DNA of 63,826 bases, filler included, from Reclinomonas americana ATCC 50394 (GCA_048213135.1; 8 parts of 4 records of this genome joined end to end with filler, not necessarily neighbours in it), one strand, 5' to 3'; positions 52-62,012 are shown, counted from the whole stretch's first letter. The notes: generated by a model not told the origin, from the letters alone. Made by a program: numbers and translations.

Positions 52-596
52 CTGTTCACCCGGCGGCAGAATCAAGGAACTGACATTGCAAAAGAGGAGC
101 AAGGAGTGAGACGGGGGTTATAGAGAGGGGAGAGACGGGGCAAATGCCGGCGCAACATCATGCTCTGCGTGCAGGAGAAAGCAAGAGTGAGGTCGATGAC
201 GGCGGATTGGACAACAATAATAAGCACAACTCACCGTGCCTGACAACCGCCGCACACACACGCACCGAAGAACAGCACAGTGAGCATATACAGAGAGAGG
301 GAGGAGAAGCGACTGGTACTTGCACACACACCATTGCTGTGTTGCCATCAATGAGCATCATTATTATGTACACAACGAGAGAGTGGTCACATTTGTTGGA
401 ACTCACCCGCGTGCTTCGTCCAGCTTGCGAATCATCTTCTTCACACGGAATTGCTCTATTCACATATGTGGAACACAGTGAGCAGCAGGTGCGACGCATG
501 AAAAGGAGAGCGTCGGAAGTAGTTAGTGATGTGCATGTACACCGTCGCACTCAACACCAAGCACGTACAGCTTGAAACGCCGTTCGACAGACAGAC

Positions 597-629
<33 letters not shown>

Positions 630-754
630 CAACAGCACAGGCGAGCTCAAGTCTCTCTATTCTCTCTATCTGTGCGTGTGTGTGCACACCATGCCCCAAA
701 AAAGCACGCACCAATGTTGACATCGTACGCCGAGTTTGCCGAGGACGACGCCAT
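52..754 (-). CDS. ETF1: Eukaryotic peptide chain release factor 1, 5' part (continues beyond window start)
   Basis: Exons 754-712, 455-407, 336-332, 239-235, 164-157 and 79-52, all with GT..AG introns, splice to [46 protein letters not shown]. This matches the eRF1 N-terminal consensus ([31 protein letters not shown].DQ). Confidence 0.92.
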
Positions 755-901
755 GGTTAACGTAAGGAGAGTGGAGGAAGAGTGAGGCGGAGGGGGATAA
801 CAAGCGTGCGCCCACGCCGAAGTGATATGAGTGAGAGGGACAGTCGCTCGCGCATCGTCATCTGTCCCCGTTTCCACATCGCTGTCAACACAACATCACG
901 C

Positions 902-2038
902 ATGGGCTGTTCACAAACAAAGCAGGCTGGTGAGTAGAAGGAGAGGGAGAAGGAGAAGGAGAGGAGGAGAAGAAGAGTGGCAAGTGTGTGTGCGGATATT
1001 TTTTCCTCATTGTGTGTGTTGTGTGAGGGGTATCTGCATCAACGTGTCACGCGTGTCTGTCTCTCCTTTCTCCACTTCAAATGGTGTGGACAACGCGCAT
1101 GCTCGTGTGCGTGCATGTGTGTGCGCATGTGTGTGTGGTGGGGGGGTTGTCGCGAGTGTGAACATCACGCGCCATGCCGCATGCCCTCGCGACTCACACA
1201 CACACACAGACGCTCAGGCAAGTCGGCAGCGTATTCCGGCGGCGGGAGATGGCTCGTCGGGCGCAGGAGGCGCCTCAGCAGCGCGACCGGCGGGTGGCGC
1301 AGGAGCGGGATCGTCGGGCGCAGTGGCGGGCTCTGTGAGCCGCAGGATAGGCAGCGGCGGAGCGTGAGTACACAATGACAAGCGAGTACGTGCGTGCGTG
1401 CAGGCAGCATGCTCATTCCCTTGTTGGGTGAGGCAGTGAGGAGGATGACACTCGCATGGGCACGTCGTACACGGACGAGCGCATGGCACAGCAGTTCTAC
1501 AAGGAGATCATTGACCGAACGGCGCAGTTTCGTCTCTCGCAACAGCGTGTTGACGGACGGTGGAGTGCTCATTGAGTCTCTGCACAGCAACTTTATCGAT
1601 GTCGATCAGATGCCCACCACGTTTGACTCGGCCGATGCGTCGCGCACCCTGCAAGTGTACTGGTTGGTACAAGTAATTCCTTGCTGCGTCCGCTTTTCCT
1701 TGTGCCTGACTCGTTGAGCGCTGTGCACAGCGATCGCATTCGCAATCCCGAAGTCATGGAGCTGGTGGCGCACTCGTTTGCGCTGCCGCCGTCCAATGTG
1801 CGCGACGTGAACAGCCTCGTGTCGGCGGCCTCGGATGCCTCCATCTCGGCCGACGAAGTGGCACTGGTGAGTTTCCCTGTGTGGTTTCCCCACGCCGCCA
1901 ACACAAGCCTCACATTTTTTTTACGTTGCGCAGTTGAACCGCATCTCCGAGTCGCTGTCGCACGCACGACGAGACATGACGGTGCACGGCGCCGAGCGGG
2001 TGGTTGTCCTGCTGCCGGAGATTTCCGCGCGTGCGTAA
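902..2038 (+). CDS. LAMTOR1: Ragulator subunit LAMTOR1/p18 (Meh1)-like
   Basis: Starts MGCSQ (myristoylation/palmitoylation-type N-terminus). Spliced exons give TDERMAQQFYKEIIDRTAHNFIDV (cf. [21 protein letters not shown]) and C-terminal LNRISESLSHARRDMTVHGAERVVVLL. TAA at 2036-2038. Confidence 0.7.
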
Positions 2039-2184
2039 GAGTTTTTTTCGCAGAGAGAAGAGAGAAAAGTGGCGATTTGAGAATAGGCCCCGTGTGCGTC
2101 GGGCGAGAGGTGAATGCAGGAAGAGTTGTTGTTTGACGTCGTGCGTCCCACTGTCGATTTTCCATTTTTTGACACAACAACGAG

Positions 2185-59244: not shown

Positions 59245-59379
59245 CGCCCGGAAATCCCCGAGACCCTCGAACCCGGCTCTCTGCGCGACTTTATCGAGCA
59301 GTGTCTGTGCGTCGACTCGGCGATGAGACCTTCCATTGACGAGCTGCTCCAGCATCCGTTCATCATGGGCGAGTCGTGA
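59245..59379 (+). CDS. Last exon of a Ser/Thr protein kinase (subdomains X-XI)
   Basis: RPEIPETL...LRDFIEQCLCVDSAMRPSIDELLQHPFI* after a polypyrimidine CAG acceptor. Confidence 0.8.
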   Translation, partial: RPEIPETLEPGSLRDFIEQCLCVDSAMRPSIDELLQHPFIMGES

Positions 59380-60185
59380 GACTGGTAATGTAGCAGCGAG
59401 TAGAATGGGAAGACGTGGGTGTGTTTATTGGCACAGTTGTGTTTGCAACAACGGATGATCGATGTCTGTATGTTGCGCTTGTGCAACTCGGTTTGTTGCC
59501 GCAGAGGGAGTCTCCAGCAGCAGTGGTCCCGCTGCGATCGTGCCCACACCATGGAGTGCTTCTTTTCATTCGCACTTGTCAGCCTTGCTGGCATGTGTGT
59601 ACGCTGCTGTTGGTCATTCTCCGGCTGCTGGCTTGGTTCAAGTCATCATGTCGAAACTCTGTCGACTTGCTGTCTCTTCCAGCGCAGTTGCTGCAGCGTG
59701 ACGGCGAAGTCACTTTCCTTTGCGTGTGCATGTGTCCTGCTTCATCTCCACTGGGGCCTCATCTTCGCGTTCCGTGCTTACTTGCTGTCTCTGAGTGCGC
59801 ACTTGTATCCGCATTCCTCCTCCGCCACACTGTCCCACTTCCCCACTTGTCTTGCCATGTTCCTTTTCCATGGACTGTCGACCATCAACACAGTTGCTGG
59901 CTTGGTTCAAGTCGAAACTCTGTCGACTTGCTGTCCCTTTCAACGCAGTTGTTGCAGCGTGACTGCGACGTTACTTGCGTTTGTGTGTCCTTTTTTCTCG
60001 AGCTGTGTTGATGTCCGCAGCCTCTCTTTGTCTGTCAACAAAGTCGTCACGGCGGAGGAAGTTGAATAGTCATTGCAGTTTCGACACGCGCTGCTTGCTC
60101 GTTGGCGATCGGAGAAAAGCGCTTTCCAACTCACCAATCGACAAACCACTCAGTTTCTCTCTCCCTTCCGTCATTCATTCGCGCA

Positions 60186-61093
60186 ATGACACGTCTCGCG
60201 CTCCTTGCGCTCACCCTCGCATGCTGCATGACTGCACTGCTCGCATGCACCACGGCTTCCGTGACAGCTGCCTCGTCACCGCCGTTGCTGCGTGGCGAAT
60301 CTCATCATGATGACGTCGCCGACATGCTCACCGATCAGCCATTCTACCCGTTCCTCAAAGTGCAAGCTGACACGCACTATGAGGTGAGAGAGAGAGAGGG
60401 AGAGAGAGAGAGTGAGAGAGAGAGAGGGAGAGAGGAATAAGGGAGCGAGAGCACTCATGCGAATCTAAGTCATGTGATGTGCCTTCCTCTCTGAGCACTC
60501 TCTCCCTCTCTTCTCACATCCTCTCGCTCACCATCTCTCTCACTCTCACCCTCTCTCTCACTCTCACCCTCTCACTCTCACCCTCTCTCACACTCTCTCA
60601 CTCTTCTCCCTCACCCTTCCTCTCCCTTTCACCCTCCCTCTCTCTCTCTCATTCTCAGGCCTTCCTGCAAATCGGTCGCACCTTCCGCGAGCGCATTGTG
60701 AACTTTTTCGGCAACAACACCGCGCTGCATGACAAGCTGCTGCCGTATGTGGCCACTCCCGATGGAAAGCGCGCATTCGACACCTTGTTTGCCTACAATG
60801 CGCGTGCTGCGCCCGAGTACCTCCAGGTCTCTCAGTTGGTATCAGCGCAGTTGTGTCATGTCGGTATCCTCACTGGTGACTTGGCAGGAGTTGATTGGTA
60901 TCTCTGATGGATCCGGAGTGCCGCTGGACCAGGTGGTGGTGTATAGCTTTGAGGATGAAGTCGATGCACTGGCGTCCAAGGCGACTGGTCGCGTGCGGCC
61001 GGCTCGGGCAGCCGATGCCCACTGTGCGGATGTGTTGATCAACACCACTCCGCTGCGCATGATTGGGCATAACGAAGGTGCTGTCTCTCCCTA

Positions 61094-61146
<53 letters not shown>

Positions 61147-62012
61147 TGGTGTGTTGCTGTTCCATGCATCCTGCTGACTCGCGGCTGCCAGATGCGGACC
61201 CGTGGGTGGAGAACTATGCGTACATTGTGCAAGTCAAGATCGGCAACGAAGTTGCGTTGAACATGTGTGCATTCGACAGCATGCGAGACTCACACCTACC
61301 ACACAGCCCGAGTTTGTCGCCTTTTCGTACCCGGGCCAGCTGCCCGGCAACGCTTTCGGCTTCAACGAGAACGGCTTGGTGATCACCACCAACGCGCAGT
61401 TTGCCATTGACGTGAATGTTAATGGAATCGGTGAGTCGCTTCGCGGCGGTGCTGTAAGGACAAGAAGGGGCACTTACTCTTTATTGTGCGTTGCGCAGGT
61501 CGCAACTGGCTGGTTAGCTACCTTTTTGCTTCTGTTGCTCCTGGCACGTCTTCTCACTTGCTCATGGTGGGACGACACAGAGTCGGCGTGCGCTGGTCGC
61601 ACACTCGATCGACGAGGCACTGCAGCGCCTGCAAATCAACGACTCGGCGTACGGTTTCAGCTGCAAGTGCGTCTTGCGCGCCCCCTCTCCTGATCTGTGC
61701 TCCCTCGCTGAATTCGCTGTTTTTTCCCGACAGCCTGGCCATGACCTCGGGCTCGCGCATGTACAACCTGGAGATTGGCCCCGGCAGTCAGCGTGATGTG
61801 CTGGAGTTGCCGATTGACTCGCGGACGCCGCTGCCGCCGTCCAAGGTGAACGTGAAGGGCTTCCCGCCGGCCGATACGTGGAAGGGTATGCGAGAGGGAA
61901 AGGGAGAGGGCGAACAGGGGTCTAACGAGTGTGAGTTGTGTAGTGTCCGACACGTATCCGAAGGTTAACATGTACCAGCGGCTCAATGCGTCGCAGTACT
62001 ATGACACGAGCA
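60186..62012 (+). CDS. Secreted peptidase C45 / acyl-CoA:6-APA acyltransferase-like Ntn hydrolase, 3' partial
   Basis: Signal peptide MTRLALLALTLACC; ELIGISDGSG; catalytic-type HCADV; IGHNED; YPGQLPGNAFGFNENGLVITTN. Confidence 0.88.

What the first reader, a model, noticed from the sequence alone, without database searches (positions are those of the whole stretch)
151..61256. Recurrent atypical 5' splice-site class GTTGCG/GTTTCG used after non-G exon ends
Seen: frame-restoring donors reading GTTGCG at + 2456, 5047, 5827, 6178, 6371, 8430, 9511, 9649, 40791, 51029, 61251 and at - 156, 11457, 19178, 20416, 39287, 56485, plus GTTTCG at + 1527, 2291, 7585, 9192. All follow A, C or T, whereas GTGCG donors mostly follow G. 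In LeuRS about half of the ~16 visible introns have T at +3, and conserved motifs (HLGH, MPIAASA, AARNASFQ) fix the cut site. Known: +3 is normally a purine. Inference: GTTGCG looks like GTGCG with an extra T, suggesting bulged or shifted U1/U6 pairing or a variant snRNA in this lineage.
Basis: partly seen in the sequence, partly recalled or inferred. Interest (0 to 1): 0.7.

Follow-up and report, generated by a model that had tools for sequence, protein, structure and literature searches.

The report
Intron start signal shifted one base
In this stretch of an unidentified, intron-rich eukaryote about a quarter of the short introns start with GTTGCG or GTTTCG and always follow an exon that does not end in G, which looks like the organism's normal start signal read one base out of step, a mode that is rare in humans but seems routine here.

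Summary
All 21 hexamers sit at the stated coordinates, each after A, C or T. In the leucyl-tRNA synthetase gene 8 of 16 introns start GTT[G/T]CG. A profile of 45 homologs ranks the proposed junction first for 6 of those 8, among 51-120 alternatives each.

A gene finder with no donor model puts these hexamers at 10 of 65 short introns, although they are 88 of 7750 GT sites (p=4e-9). With a donor model that ignores exon bases there are 70 short introns. The 17 GTT[G/T]CG donors follow A11/C5/T1/G0. The 53 other donors follow G in 41 cases (p=7e-9).

One refinement: +3T is not itself the mark. GTTGGT and GTTTGT donors follow G. The class is A|GTTGCGT, which is the local consensus AG|GTGCGT with one base changed and the cut moved one base upstream. 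Exon-side base statistics favour a U1 register shifted by one base over a bulged U.

No genome, snRNA gene or RNA data could be examined, so the pairing model is inferred. Such registers are known in humans at about 1.5% of donors or fewer. Here the class would be a major one, so I rate it a new variant of a known kind.

The parts
5644..10621 (+). Cytoplasmic-type leucyl-tRNA synthetase gene with 16 resolved introns and an N gap at 6587-6825. It is the test bed for the donor class.
   Evidence: Exon 7146-7583 is 76% identical to its best homolog. The alignment to 18 homologs is gapless across most junctions.
5827..6113 (+). Intron, donor gga|GTTGCGT, 287 nt.
   Evidence: It ranks 2 of 120 alternatives; a GC start 3 nt downstream scores 1.8 bits more. 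The region is variable.
6178..6257 (+). Intron, donor atc|GTTGCGT, 80 nt. Splicing restores the HLGH motif.
   Evidence: rank 1 of 63, margin 8.1 bits..
6371..6443 (+). Intron, donor gct|GTTGCGT, 73 nt. Splicing restores GMPIAASA.
   Evidence: rank 1 of 51, margin 5.5 bits.
7585..7655 (+). Intron, donor gca|GTTTCGT, 71 nt. Splicing restores ERAARNASFQ.
   Evidence: rank 1 of 116, margin 11.6 bits.
8430..8501 (+). Intron, donor cgc|GTTGCGT, 72 nt, TAG acceptor.
   Evidence: rank 1 of 107, margin 4.4 bits.
9192..9254 (+). Intron, donor aga|GTTTCGT, 63 nt.
   Evidence: rank 1 of 56, margin 4.4 bits.
9511..9571 (+). Intron, donor caa|GTTGCGT, 61 nt.
   Evidence: rank 1 of 116, margin 5.4 bits.
9649..9730 (+). 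Intron, donor aca|GTTGCGC, 82 nt.
   Evidence: rank 6 of 120, in a variable region. The gene finder calls it without a donor model.
1527..1587 (+). Intron, donor gca|GTTTCGT, 61 nt.
   Evidence: It is called without any donor model.
2291..2357 (+). Intron, donor aac|GTTTCGT, 67 nt, in a small gene (ATG at 2185) with an rRNA_processing domain.
   Evidence: together with intron 2456-2668 it gives an open ATG-to-stop frame. PF08524. The gene finder did not choose it.
2456..2668 (+). Intron, donor gga|GTTGCGC, 213 nt.
5047..5101 (+). Intron, donor cac|GTTGCGT, 55 nt, inside an RGS-domain gene.
   Evidence: RGS profile positions 34-106 begin at the next exon.
40626..40703 (+).
40791..40851 (+). Intron, donor aaa|GTTGCGC, 61 nt.
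51029..51086 (+). Intron, donor caa|GTTGCGT, 58 nt, in a G-patch/KOW (GPKOW-like) gene.
61251..61306 (+). Intron, donor gaa|GTTGCGT, 56 nt, in a peptidase C45/AAT-like gene.
   Evidence: rank 1 of 31 against a profile of 26 homologs, but by only 0.5 bit..
39447..39525 (-).
39226..39287 (-). Intron, donor cga|GTTGCGT, 62 nt, upstream of a zf-Nse (Nse2-like) exon.
15091..15181 (-).
14196..14263 (-).
11400..11457 (-). Intron, donor ttc|GTTGCGT, 58 nt. It joins an ATG exon (ATG at 11543) to a tRNA_bind-domain exon.
   Evidence: PF01588, E=8.5e-11. This is a manual model.
20353..20416 (-). Intron, donor gcc|GTTGCGT, 64 nt.
   Evidence: a frame-consistent manual model. The gene family was not confirmed by Pfam.

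Best explanation
These are ordinary U2-type GT-AG introns of an unidentified, intron-rich eukaryote that uses two donor forms.

The common form is (A)G|GTGNGT, most often GTGCGT. The second form, about a quarter of short introns here and half of those in LeuRS, is H|GTT(G/T)CG(T/C), where H is A, C or T. Written out, A|GTTGCGT is the same eight letters as AG|GTGCGT except for one base, but the cut lies one base further upstream.

The most likely mechanism is this. The 5' end of U1 snRNA pairs with the second form one base out of register. The intron's own first G takes the place of the exon's last G opposite U1 C9. +3U pairs with A7, +6G with C4, +7U with A3, and an exon-final A with U10. The cut is then placed at the only GU by the later U6/U5/Prp8 steps, probably with one U looped out. 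This lets an intron sit behind an exon that cannot end in G.

Shown: the donors exist at these positions, they share ordinary lengths and branch-like motifs, they never follow G, and their exon-side composition matches the ordinary profile moved by one base.

Inferred: every statement about snRNA pairing, and that the transcripts are really cut there.

All members have C at +5 and none is GTTGAGT. I therefore predict that this organism's U1 carries a G opposite ordinary position +4, that is a 5' end like ACGUAC or ACGCAC.
For: Homology:
- A profile of 45 LeuRS homologs ranks the GTT[GT]CG junction first for 6 of 8 introns, with margins of 4.4-11.6 bits over 51-116 frame-keeping GT/GC/AT...AG/AC alternatives.
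- The alignments are gapless across these junctions.

Generality:
- A finder with no donor model puts the class at 10 of 65 short introns against 1.1% of GT sites.
- A donor model learnt only outside LeuRS raises exact LeuRS introns from 13 of 16 to 16 of 16.

Association:
- With a donor model blind to exon bases, the class (n=17) follows A11/C5/T1/G0.
- The other donors (n=53) follow G in 41 cases. Fisher p=6.6e-9.
- The same hexamers elsewhere in the window follow G in 18 of 71 cases (Fisher p=0.018).

Register:
- The last two exon bases of the class score -57.9 bits under the ordinary profile moved by one base.
- They score -103.9 bits in the same register and -70.8 bits under background.
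- Mean pairs to a standard U1 5' end for the class are 3.5 in the normal register and 5.65 shifted.
- Ordinary donors in the normal register average 6.6 pairs.
- With a G opposite +4 the shifted value is 6.65.

3' side and length:
- A branch-like YTRAY motif lies 8-45 nt before the AG in 11 of 17 class introns and 20 of 53 others.
- At random YAG sites the figure is 90 of 796.
- Median length is 68 nt in both classes.

Precedent:
- Shifted and bulged U1 registers are proven in human cells (PMC4856993, passages read).
Against: - No transcript evidence and no snRNA sequence could be examined.
- A bulged-U register gives the same number of pairs as the shifted one (5.59 against 5.65).
- With a standard U1, C at +5 is a mismatch. 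Its invariance (17 of 17) and the absence of GTTGAGT therefore need an added assumption about U1, or another factor that reads the CG.
- Two of the 8 LeuRS class donors are not top-ranked by homology: 5827 ranks 2 and 9649 ranks 6.
- The one pinned case outside LeuRS wins by only 0.5 bit.
- All introns outside LeuRS come from my own self-trained finder or from manual models. That finder also merged neighbouring genes and called many doubtful long introns.
- The sample is one 64-kb window joined from several contigs.
Confidence: 0.5

Rival explanations
1. The donor class is the same and U1 is the same, but pairing uses a bulge. +1G pairs with C8 as usual, one of the two U's (+2 or +3) loops out, and +4 to +7 pair like ordinary +3 to +6.
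For: Pair count rises from 3.5 to 5.59, equal to the shifted register. A bulge at +2/+3 is a validated human register (PMC4856993, Table 3 seen: 68 predicted and 54 curated of 201,541 donors). It keeps the scissile bond in the usual place relative to U1 and U6.
Against: In this register the exon's last base still faces U1 C9, so G should be favoured as it is in ordinary donors (41 of 53). Instead it is absent (0 of 17), and A dominates, as at ordinary position -2. The same-register likelihood is 46 bits worse than the shifted one.
Confidence: 0.2
2. A second U1-like snRNA (a variant gene copy) with a 5' end complementary in the normal register to GUUGCGU serves this class, as two parallel recognition systems.
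For: The class is sharply defined (GTT, G/T, C, G, T/C) and abundant, as expected if it has a reader of its own. U1 5' ends have changed in step with donors in Entamoeba (AACAAAC with GUUUGUU), and probably in Mastigamoeba balamuthi (ACGUAC with GUGCGC). Physarum may carry both standard and modified U1 copies (bioRxiv 10.1101/2022.06.08.495308, passages read).
Against: No snRNA could be examined. The exon-side profile of the class equals the ordinary profile moved by one base. One U1 explains that without a second gene. A dedicated U1 would not by itself predict the lack of G at -1.
Confidence: 0.12
3. No special pairing logic is involved. Donors in this lineage are simply degenerate, or are defined mainly by U6 or proteins. 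The class then reflects mutation or composition bias, for example a favoured CG-containing heptamer.
For: Lineages with C or U at +4 mostly keep a standard U1 that does not match their donors. Ordinary donors here are themselves varied: at +4 they show C21/T15/A13/G4.
Against: The class is enriched about tenfold or more over its share of GT sites. Three intron positions are invariant, and the class is tied to the exon's last base at p=7e-9. Composition alone does not produce that, since non-donor copies of the hexamers follow G in 18 of 71 cases.
Confidence: 0.1
4. Gene-model artefact. The true introns start elsewhere, for example as GC-AG introns three bases downstream (GTT|GCGT...), or the sites are not introns at all.
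For: For 5827 the GC start 3 nt downstream scores 1.8 bits better. For 61251 it is only 0.5 bit worse. No RNA data exist to settle it.
Against: For six LeuRS introns the GC start 3 nt downstream, or any other alternative, is 4.4-11.6 bits worse. At 6178 it would turn HLGH into a five-residue insert-bearing motif. The reversed-sequence control gives 1 intron against 104.
Confidence: 0.05

Closest known systems
Shifted-register 5' splice sites of human genes (Roca & Krainer 2009, known to me only through PMC4856993: passages and reference list)
   Same: A GU donor with poor normal-register pairing regains pairing when U1 is moved by one base. The cut stays at the GU. The human test oligonucleotide ACA/GUCAAGUAUA has the same layout, with A at -1 and consensus letters displaced by one.
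   Different: In humans this is a rarity. All validated noncanonical registers together are 1.5% of 201,541 donors. Here the class is 17 of 70 short introns and 8 of 16 in one gene. Here only one position is mismatched in the shifted register. The displaced consensus is GCGU rather than AAGU.
Bulge +2/+3 register of human 5' splice sites (Roca et al. 2012 as summarised in PMC4856993)
   Same: An extra U just after GU, with downstream letters displaced by one.
   Different: The human cases keep the usual exon-end preference, as far as the register requires. Here G at -1 is absent (0 of 17).
Entamoeba GUUUGUU donors with a co-evolved U1 (AACAAAC) (PMC6085484 passages; bioRxiv 10.1101/2022.06.08.495308 passages)
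   Same: A lineage in which U at +3 is normal and the recognition RNA may have changed with it. A few GTTTGT and GTTGGT donors also occur in this window.
   Different: The Entamoeba donor has G at +5 and U at +6, so it is read in the normal register. It is nearly universal there (about 88-90% of introns) and the genomes are intron-poor. The class here has C at +5 and G at +6, coexists with a commoner ordinary form, and is tied to the exon's last base.
GTGCG-type donors of Ostreococcus/Mamiellales, Mastigamoeba balamuthi and Thecamonas trahens (PMC2483917 passages; preprint passages)
   Same: The commoner donor form of this window (GTGCGT, C at +4) resembles GTGCGTG of O. lucimarinus, GYGCGY of Mamiellales and GUGCGC of M. 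balamuthi.
   Different: None of the passages I read mentions a GTTGCG class or a dependence on the exon's last base. The window's LeuRS exon is at most 76% identical to any protein found, so it is none of the annotated species. Intron density here is far higher than in Ostreococcus.

Membership tests
U2-type GT-AG spliceosomal introns | GT at the 5' end and AG at the 3' end, with removal restoring the reading frame and the protein. | tested here: met
   16 of 16 LeuRS introns. for three manual models.
U2-type GT-AG spliceosomal introns | Branch-site-like motif shortly upstream of the AG. | tested here: met
   YTRAY lies 8-45 nt before the AG in 11 of 17 class introns and 20 of 53 others, against 90 of 796 random YAG sites.
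U2-type GT-AG spliceosomal introns | Junctions seen in RNA. | not testable with these tools
   One search listed no run, and no transcript-derived protein of this organism turned up.
Shifted-register (+1) 5' splice sites | More base pairs to the U1 5' end in the register moved by one base than in the normal register. | tested here: met
   5.65 against 3.53 pairs (n=17), assuming the standard U1 5' end. The organism's own U1 is unknown.
Shifted-register (+1) 5' splice sites | Exon-side letters follow the consensus displaced by one (A at -1, no G). | tested here: met
   -1 is A11/C5/T1/G0. Shifted fit is -57.9 bits against -103.9 bits in the same register.
Shifted-register (+1) 5' splice sites | Rescue by compensatory U1 mutants only in the shifted register. 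| not testable with these tools
   This needs an experiment.
Bulge +2/+3 register 5' splice sites | More pairs with one U looped out than in the normal register. | tested here: met
   5.59 against 3.53 pairs.
Bulge +2/+3 register 5' splice sites | The exon end pairs as in ordinary donors, so G is favoured at -1. | tested here: not met
   0 of 17 G, against 41 of 53 in other donors.
U12-type (minor) introns | Donor (A/G)TATCCTT (consensus recalled, not from a call). | tested here: not met
   the donors read GTT[GT]CG and none resembles that motif.
GC-AG introns starting 3 nt downstream | A GC start gives the better protein. | tested here: not met
   it is worse by 4.4-8.1 bits at 6178, 6371, 8430 and 9511. 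At 7585 and 9192 the best alternatives of any kind are 11.6 and 4.4 bits worse. It is better by 1.8 bits only at 5827; 0.5 bit worse at 61251.
Entamoeba-type GUUUGU donors | U at +3 and +4, G at +5, U at +6. | tested here: not met
   the class has C at +5 (17 of 17) and G at +6 (17 of 17).

The most novel reading that the evidence does not exclude
This lineage routinely defines a quarter to a half of its introns with U1 bound one base out of register. The intron's first G doubles as the 'exon-final G' for U1, which frees introns from needing a G-ending exon. Its U1 would also have a changed 5' end, with G opposite ordinary +4 (ACGUAC or ACGCAC type). That change would make both GTGCGT and the displaced GTTGCGT strong sites. 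It would be the first organism in which a noncanonical U1 register is a major, rule-bound mode of splice-site recognition rather than a rare exception.
Probability: 0.4. Interest if true: 0.75.

Novelty: new variant of a known kind. Interest (0 to 1): 0.6.

Why it matters
Noncanonical U1 registers were worked out on a few hundred odd human splice sites and are treated as exceptions.

A genome in which one such register is used for a large share of introns would be a natural experiment on two questions. One is how far the recognition of the 5' splice site (U1) can be uncoupled from the choice of the cut (U6/U5/Prp8). The other is how donor signals and snRNAs change together. The clean dependence on the exon's last base makes the case unusually testable.

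There is also a practical consequence. Gene finders and splice-site scorers trained on +3 purine donors would miss a quarter or more of the introns of this organism. In this window the self-trained donor model raised exact LeuRS introns from 13 to 16 of 16.

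Tried and rejected
Data sources that were not available or gave nothing:
- Whole genome: none is held, so no U1/U6 search was possible.
- RNA runs: no RNA holder was listed and none could be laid.
- Rfam on the window: 0 matches.
- Earlier scan notes on this genome or on look-alike sequence: none.
- Close relatives for comparing orthologous introns: the best protein is 76% identical over one exon. The best of 80 metagenome loci is 69%. These loci were not used further.

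Homolog and family searches that did not pin a junction:
- A word-indexed homolog search with the AAT-like exon gave nothing. The exhaustive search gave 45 distant hits, which pinned 61251 only weakly.
- Pfam on the exon upstream of donor 5047 gave no RGS match, so that junction could not be pinned by profile coordinates.
- Pfam gave nothing for the exons beside 2291 and -20416. My impression that the -20416 gene is SAMHD1-like is recalled and unconfirmed.

Methods dropped:
- A first splice-path search that only maximised open frame failed.
- Whole-ORF codon scoring also failed, because wrong frames stay open in this GC-rich DNA.
- The codon-only finder merged genes and misplaced donors by multiples of 3.
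- Predicted introns longer than 130 nt were left out of all class counts because many look spurious.

Readings rejected:
- Introner-like repeats: the class introns share nothing beyond +7.
- U12-type introns.
- GC-AG starts.

Literature:
- The one full-text search that carried GTTGCG (with 'splice site', 'intron' and 'consensus') found only an unrelated Drosophila paper.
- In a second search GUUGCG occurred in none of the 3 papers returned.
- Roca & Krainer 2009 and Roca et al. 2012 are not held, so they are cited only through PMC4856993.
- Supplements of the Mastigamoeba paper and the figures of the preprint were not seen. They may show donor logos that bear on novelty.

Full report
**What the window is.** The window is nuclear DNA of a eukaryote, 57.6% G+C without the N's, with many short GT-AG introns. 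It is not one continuous sequence. Seven spacers of 44 N, TTAATTAATTAA and 44 N join at least eight contigs, and the first contig (1-30160) has four ordinary gaps. No whole genome is held. The window holds no Rfam family, and earlier scan notes hold nothing on this genome. The best protein match to a 146-residue LeuRS exon is 76% identical among 5.8 billion proteins. The best of 80 metagenome loci is 69%. The organism and its close kin are therefore absent from the collections I could search, and I cannot name it.

**The observation.** All 21 listed coordinates read GTTGCG or GTTTCG, and all are preceded by A, C or T. I rebuilt the leucyl-tRNA synthetase gene (5644-10621, + strand) with 16 introns of 56-287 nt, 15 of them 56-82 nt. 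Eight donors read GTT[G/T]CG. They follow A, C, T, A, C, A, A and A. The other eight read GTGCGC, GTGTGT, GTGAGT (three times), GTGCGA, GTATGT and GTGCGT, and seven of these follow G.

**Homology test in LeuRS.** Against 18 homologs the spliced protein aligns without gaps across 6178 (HLGH), 6371 (GMPIAASA), 7585 (ERAARNASFQ), 8430, 9192 and 9511.

To take my own eye out of the test, I built a profile from 45 homologs. For each intron I scored every frame-keeping alternative with a GT, GC or AT start and an AG or AC end within 60 nt, 1467 models in all. The proposed junction is best for 13 of 16 introns. Among the eight donors of the class:
- six are best, by 4.4-11.6 bits;
- 5827 is second, where a GC start three bases on scores 1.8 bits more;
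- 9649 is sixth, in a variable region.

A GC-AG reading three bases downstream is thus rejected where the protein is conserved.

**Beyond LeuRS.** I wrote a small gene finder that combines a 3-periodic Markov coding score, introns that must run from GT to YAG, and a length prior. I ran it first with no donor information. It introns, 65 of them 45-110 nt long. The commonest donor hexamer among the 65 is GTTGCG (8), ahead of GTGAGT (7) and GTGCGT (5).

- GTT[GT]CG is 88 of 7750 GT sites but 10 of these 65 introns (p=3.6e-9), and 6 of 48 outside LeuRS (p=1.7e-5).
- On the reversed sequence the same finder calls one intron.
- A donor model learnt by iteration only from introns outside LeuRS raises exact LeuRS introns from 13 to 16 of 16. 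The class therefore carries over between genes.
- In an AAT-like gene, a profile of 26 distant homologs ranks the 61251 junction first of 31, but by only 0.5 bit.
Pfam confirms the tRNA_bind exon below -11457.
- Three sites remain unresolved: -156, -19178 and -56485.

**The association with the exon's last base.** To avoid circularity I retrained the donor model on intron positions only, then read off the exon bases. There were 70 introns of 45-130 nt.

| Donor group | n | Base at -1 |
|---|---|---|
| GTT[GT]CG | 17 | A 11, C 5, T 1, G 0 |
| Other donors with T at +3 (GTTGGT, GTTTGT and others) | 8 | G 6, T 2 |
| Donors without T at +3 | 45 | G 35, other 10 |

Fisher p is 6.6e-9 for the class against the rest. 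In the donor-blind run the figures are 0 of 10 against 36 of 55 (p=1.1e-4). It is not T at +3 that goes with a non-G exon end, but the heptamer GTT(G/T)CG(T/C).

**What the class looks like.**
- Ordinary donors (n=53): -2 A (28), -1 G (41), +3 G (32), +4 C>T>A (21, 15, 13), +5 G (44), +6 T (33).
- The class (n=17): -1 A (11), +3 T, +4 G (14) or T (3), +5 C (17), +6 G (17), +7 T (13) or C (4).

A|GTTGCGT is thus AG|GTGCGT with one letter changed and the cut one base earlier. The last two exon bases of the class fit the ordinary profile moved by one base (-57.9 bits). The fit is worse in the same register (-103.9 bits) and under background composition (-70.8 bits).

Counting pairs to the standard U1 5' end (a G-U pair counts one half):
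- the class has 3.5 pairs in the normal register, 5.65 when shifted by one, and 5.59 with +3 looped out;
- ordinary donors have 6.6 in the normal register;
- with a G opposite +4, as in the U1 candidate reported for Mastigamoeba balamuthi, the shifted value is 6.65.

The introns of the class are otherwise ordinary. Their median length is 68 nt, the same as the rest. A branch-like motif is present in 11 of 17, against 20 of 53 for the rest and 90 of 796 for controls. They share no sequence beyond +7.

**Mechanism.** I think the most likely reading (about 0.5) is recognition by U1 in a register shifted by one base, with the cut then fixed at the only GU by the later steps. The bulged-U reading (0.2) gives as many pairs, but it predicts a G-ending exon, which is never seen. 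A dedicated variant U1 (0.12) cannot be excluded without the genome.

All 17 members have C at +5 and there is no GTTGAGT, although GTGAGT is a common ordinary donor. A standard U1 does not explain this. It leads me to predict a U1 with G opposite ordinary +4, or else another reader of the CG. All of this paragraph is inference. No snRNA and no RNA junction was seen.

**Comparison with what is known.**
- Shifted and bulged U1 registers are established in human cells. All validated noncanonical registers together cover 1.5% of 201,541 donors, and the +2/+3 bulge covers 68 predicted cases (PMC4856993, passages read). The original papers are not held.
- Entamoeba uses GUUUGUU in nearly all introns, with a U1 changed to AACAAAC. 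M. balamuthi is reported with GUGCGC donors and a U1 reading ACGUAC.
- Thecamonas and the Mamiellales prefer C at +4 but keep a standard U1 (PMC6085484 passages; bioRxiv 10.1101/2022.06.08.495308 passages). Ostreococcus lucimarinus has GTGCGTG (PMC2483917 passages; lead from scan notes).
- None of these passages describes a GTTGCG class or a dependence on the exon's last base.
- The one full-text search that carried GTTGCG with splice terms found nothing relevant, and GUUGCG occurred in none of the 3 papers that a second search returned.

**Verdict.** I rate this a new variant of a known kind: a known recognition trick apparently promoted to a major, rule-bound donor class. The limits are one 64-kb window, gene models of my own making outside LeuRS, and no transcript or snRNA evidence.

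Noticed in passing
30161-30260, 43797-43896, 48167-48266, 51881-51980, 55802-55901, 58668-58767, 62712-62811: Seven identical 100-base spacers (44 N, TTAATTAATTAA, 44 N) with stops in all six frames. The window is a chain of at least eight separate contigs, so adjacency and orientation beyond 30160 mean nothing.
   Followed up: yes
30261-30280, 55782-55801, 62692-62711: Several contig ends run into GTAC/ACGT-type short tandem repeats, which probably caused the assembly breaks.
   Followed up: no
10849-11543 (-): A small gene lies tail to tail with LeuRS. It has a presequence-like N-terminal exon, a Pro/Ser-rich linker and a tRNA_bind domain (PF01588, E=8.5e-11). A free-standing tRNA-binding protein next to a tRNA synthetase gene is a curious neighbourhood.
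   Followed up: partly
49369-51928 (+): A G-patch plus KOW plus GPKOW_C gene, that is a GPKOW/Spp2-like splicing factor, itself carrying a GTTGCGT intron at 51029.
   Followed up: no
18900-19170 (-): More than 270 bases of C/T-rich sequence with no AG at all lie downstream of the GTTGCG at 19178. It may be a long polypyrimidine intron or a 3' region.
   Followed up: partly
1663, 12073 (-), 52843 (-), 11896 (-), 17575: A minor set of donors has T at +3 in the ordinary register (GTTGGT, GTTTGT). They follow G and are reminiscent of the Entamoeba GUUUGU form.
   Followed up: partly
6444-6900 (+): LeuRS carries an Ala/Lys/Gly-rich insert after the GMPIAASA motif. The insert is interrupted by an assembly gap (6587-6825), so the number of introns and residues there is unknown.
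   Followed up: no
2185-3063 (+): A compact 199-residue gene with an rRNA_processing domain (PF08524) appears to have both of its introns in the GTT[GT]CG class (2291, 2456). My gene finder fused it with the neighbouring genes.
   Followed up: partly
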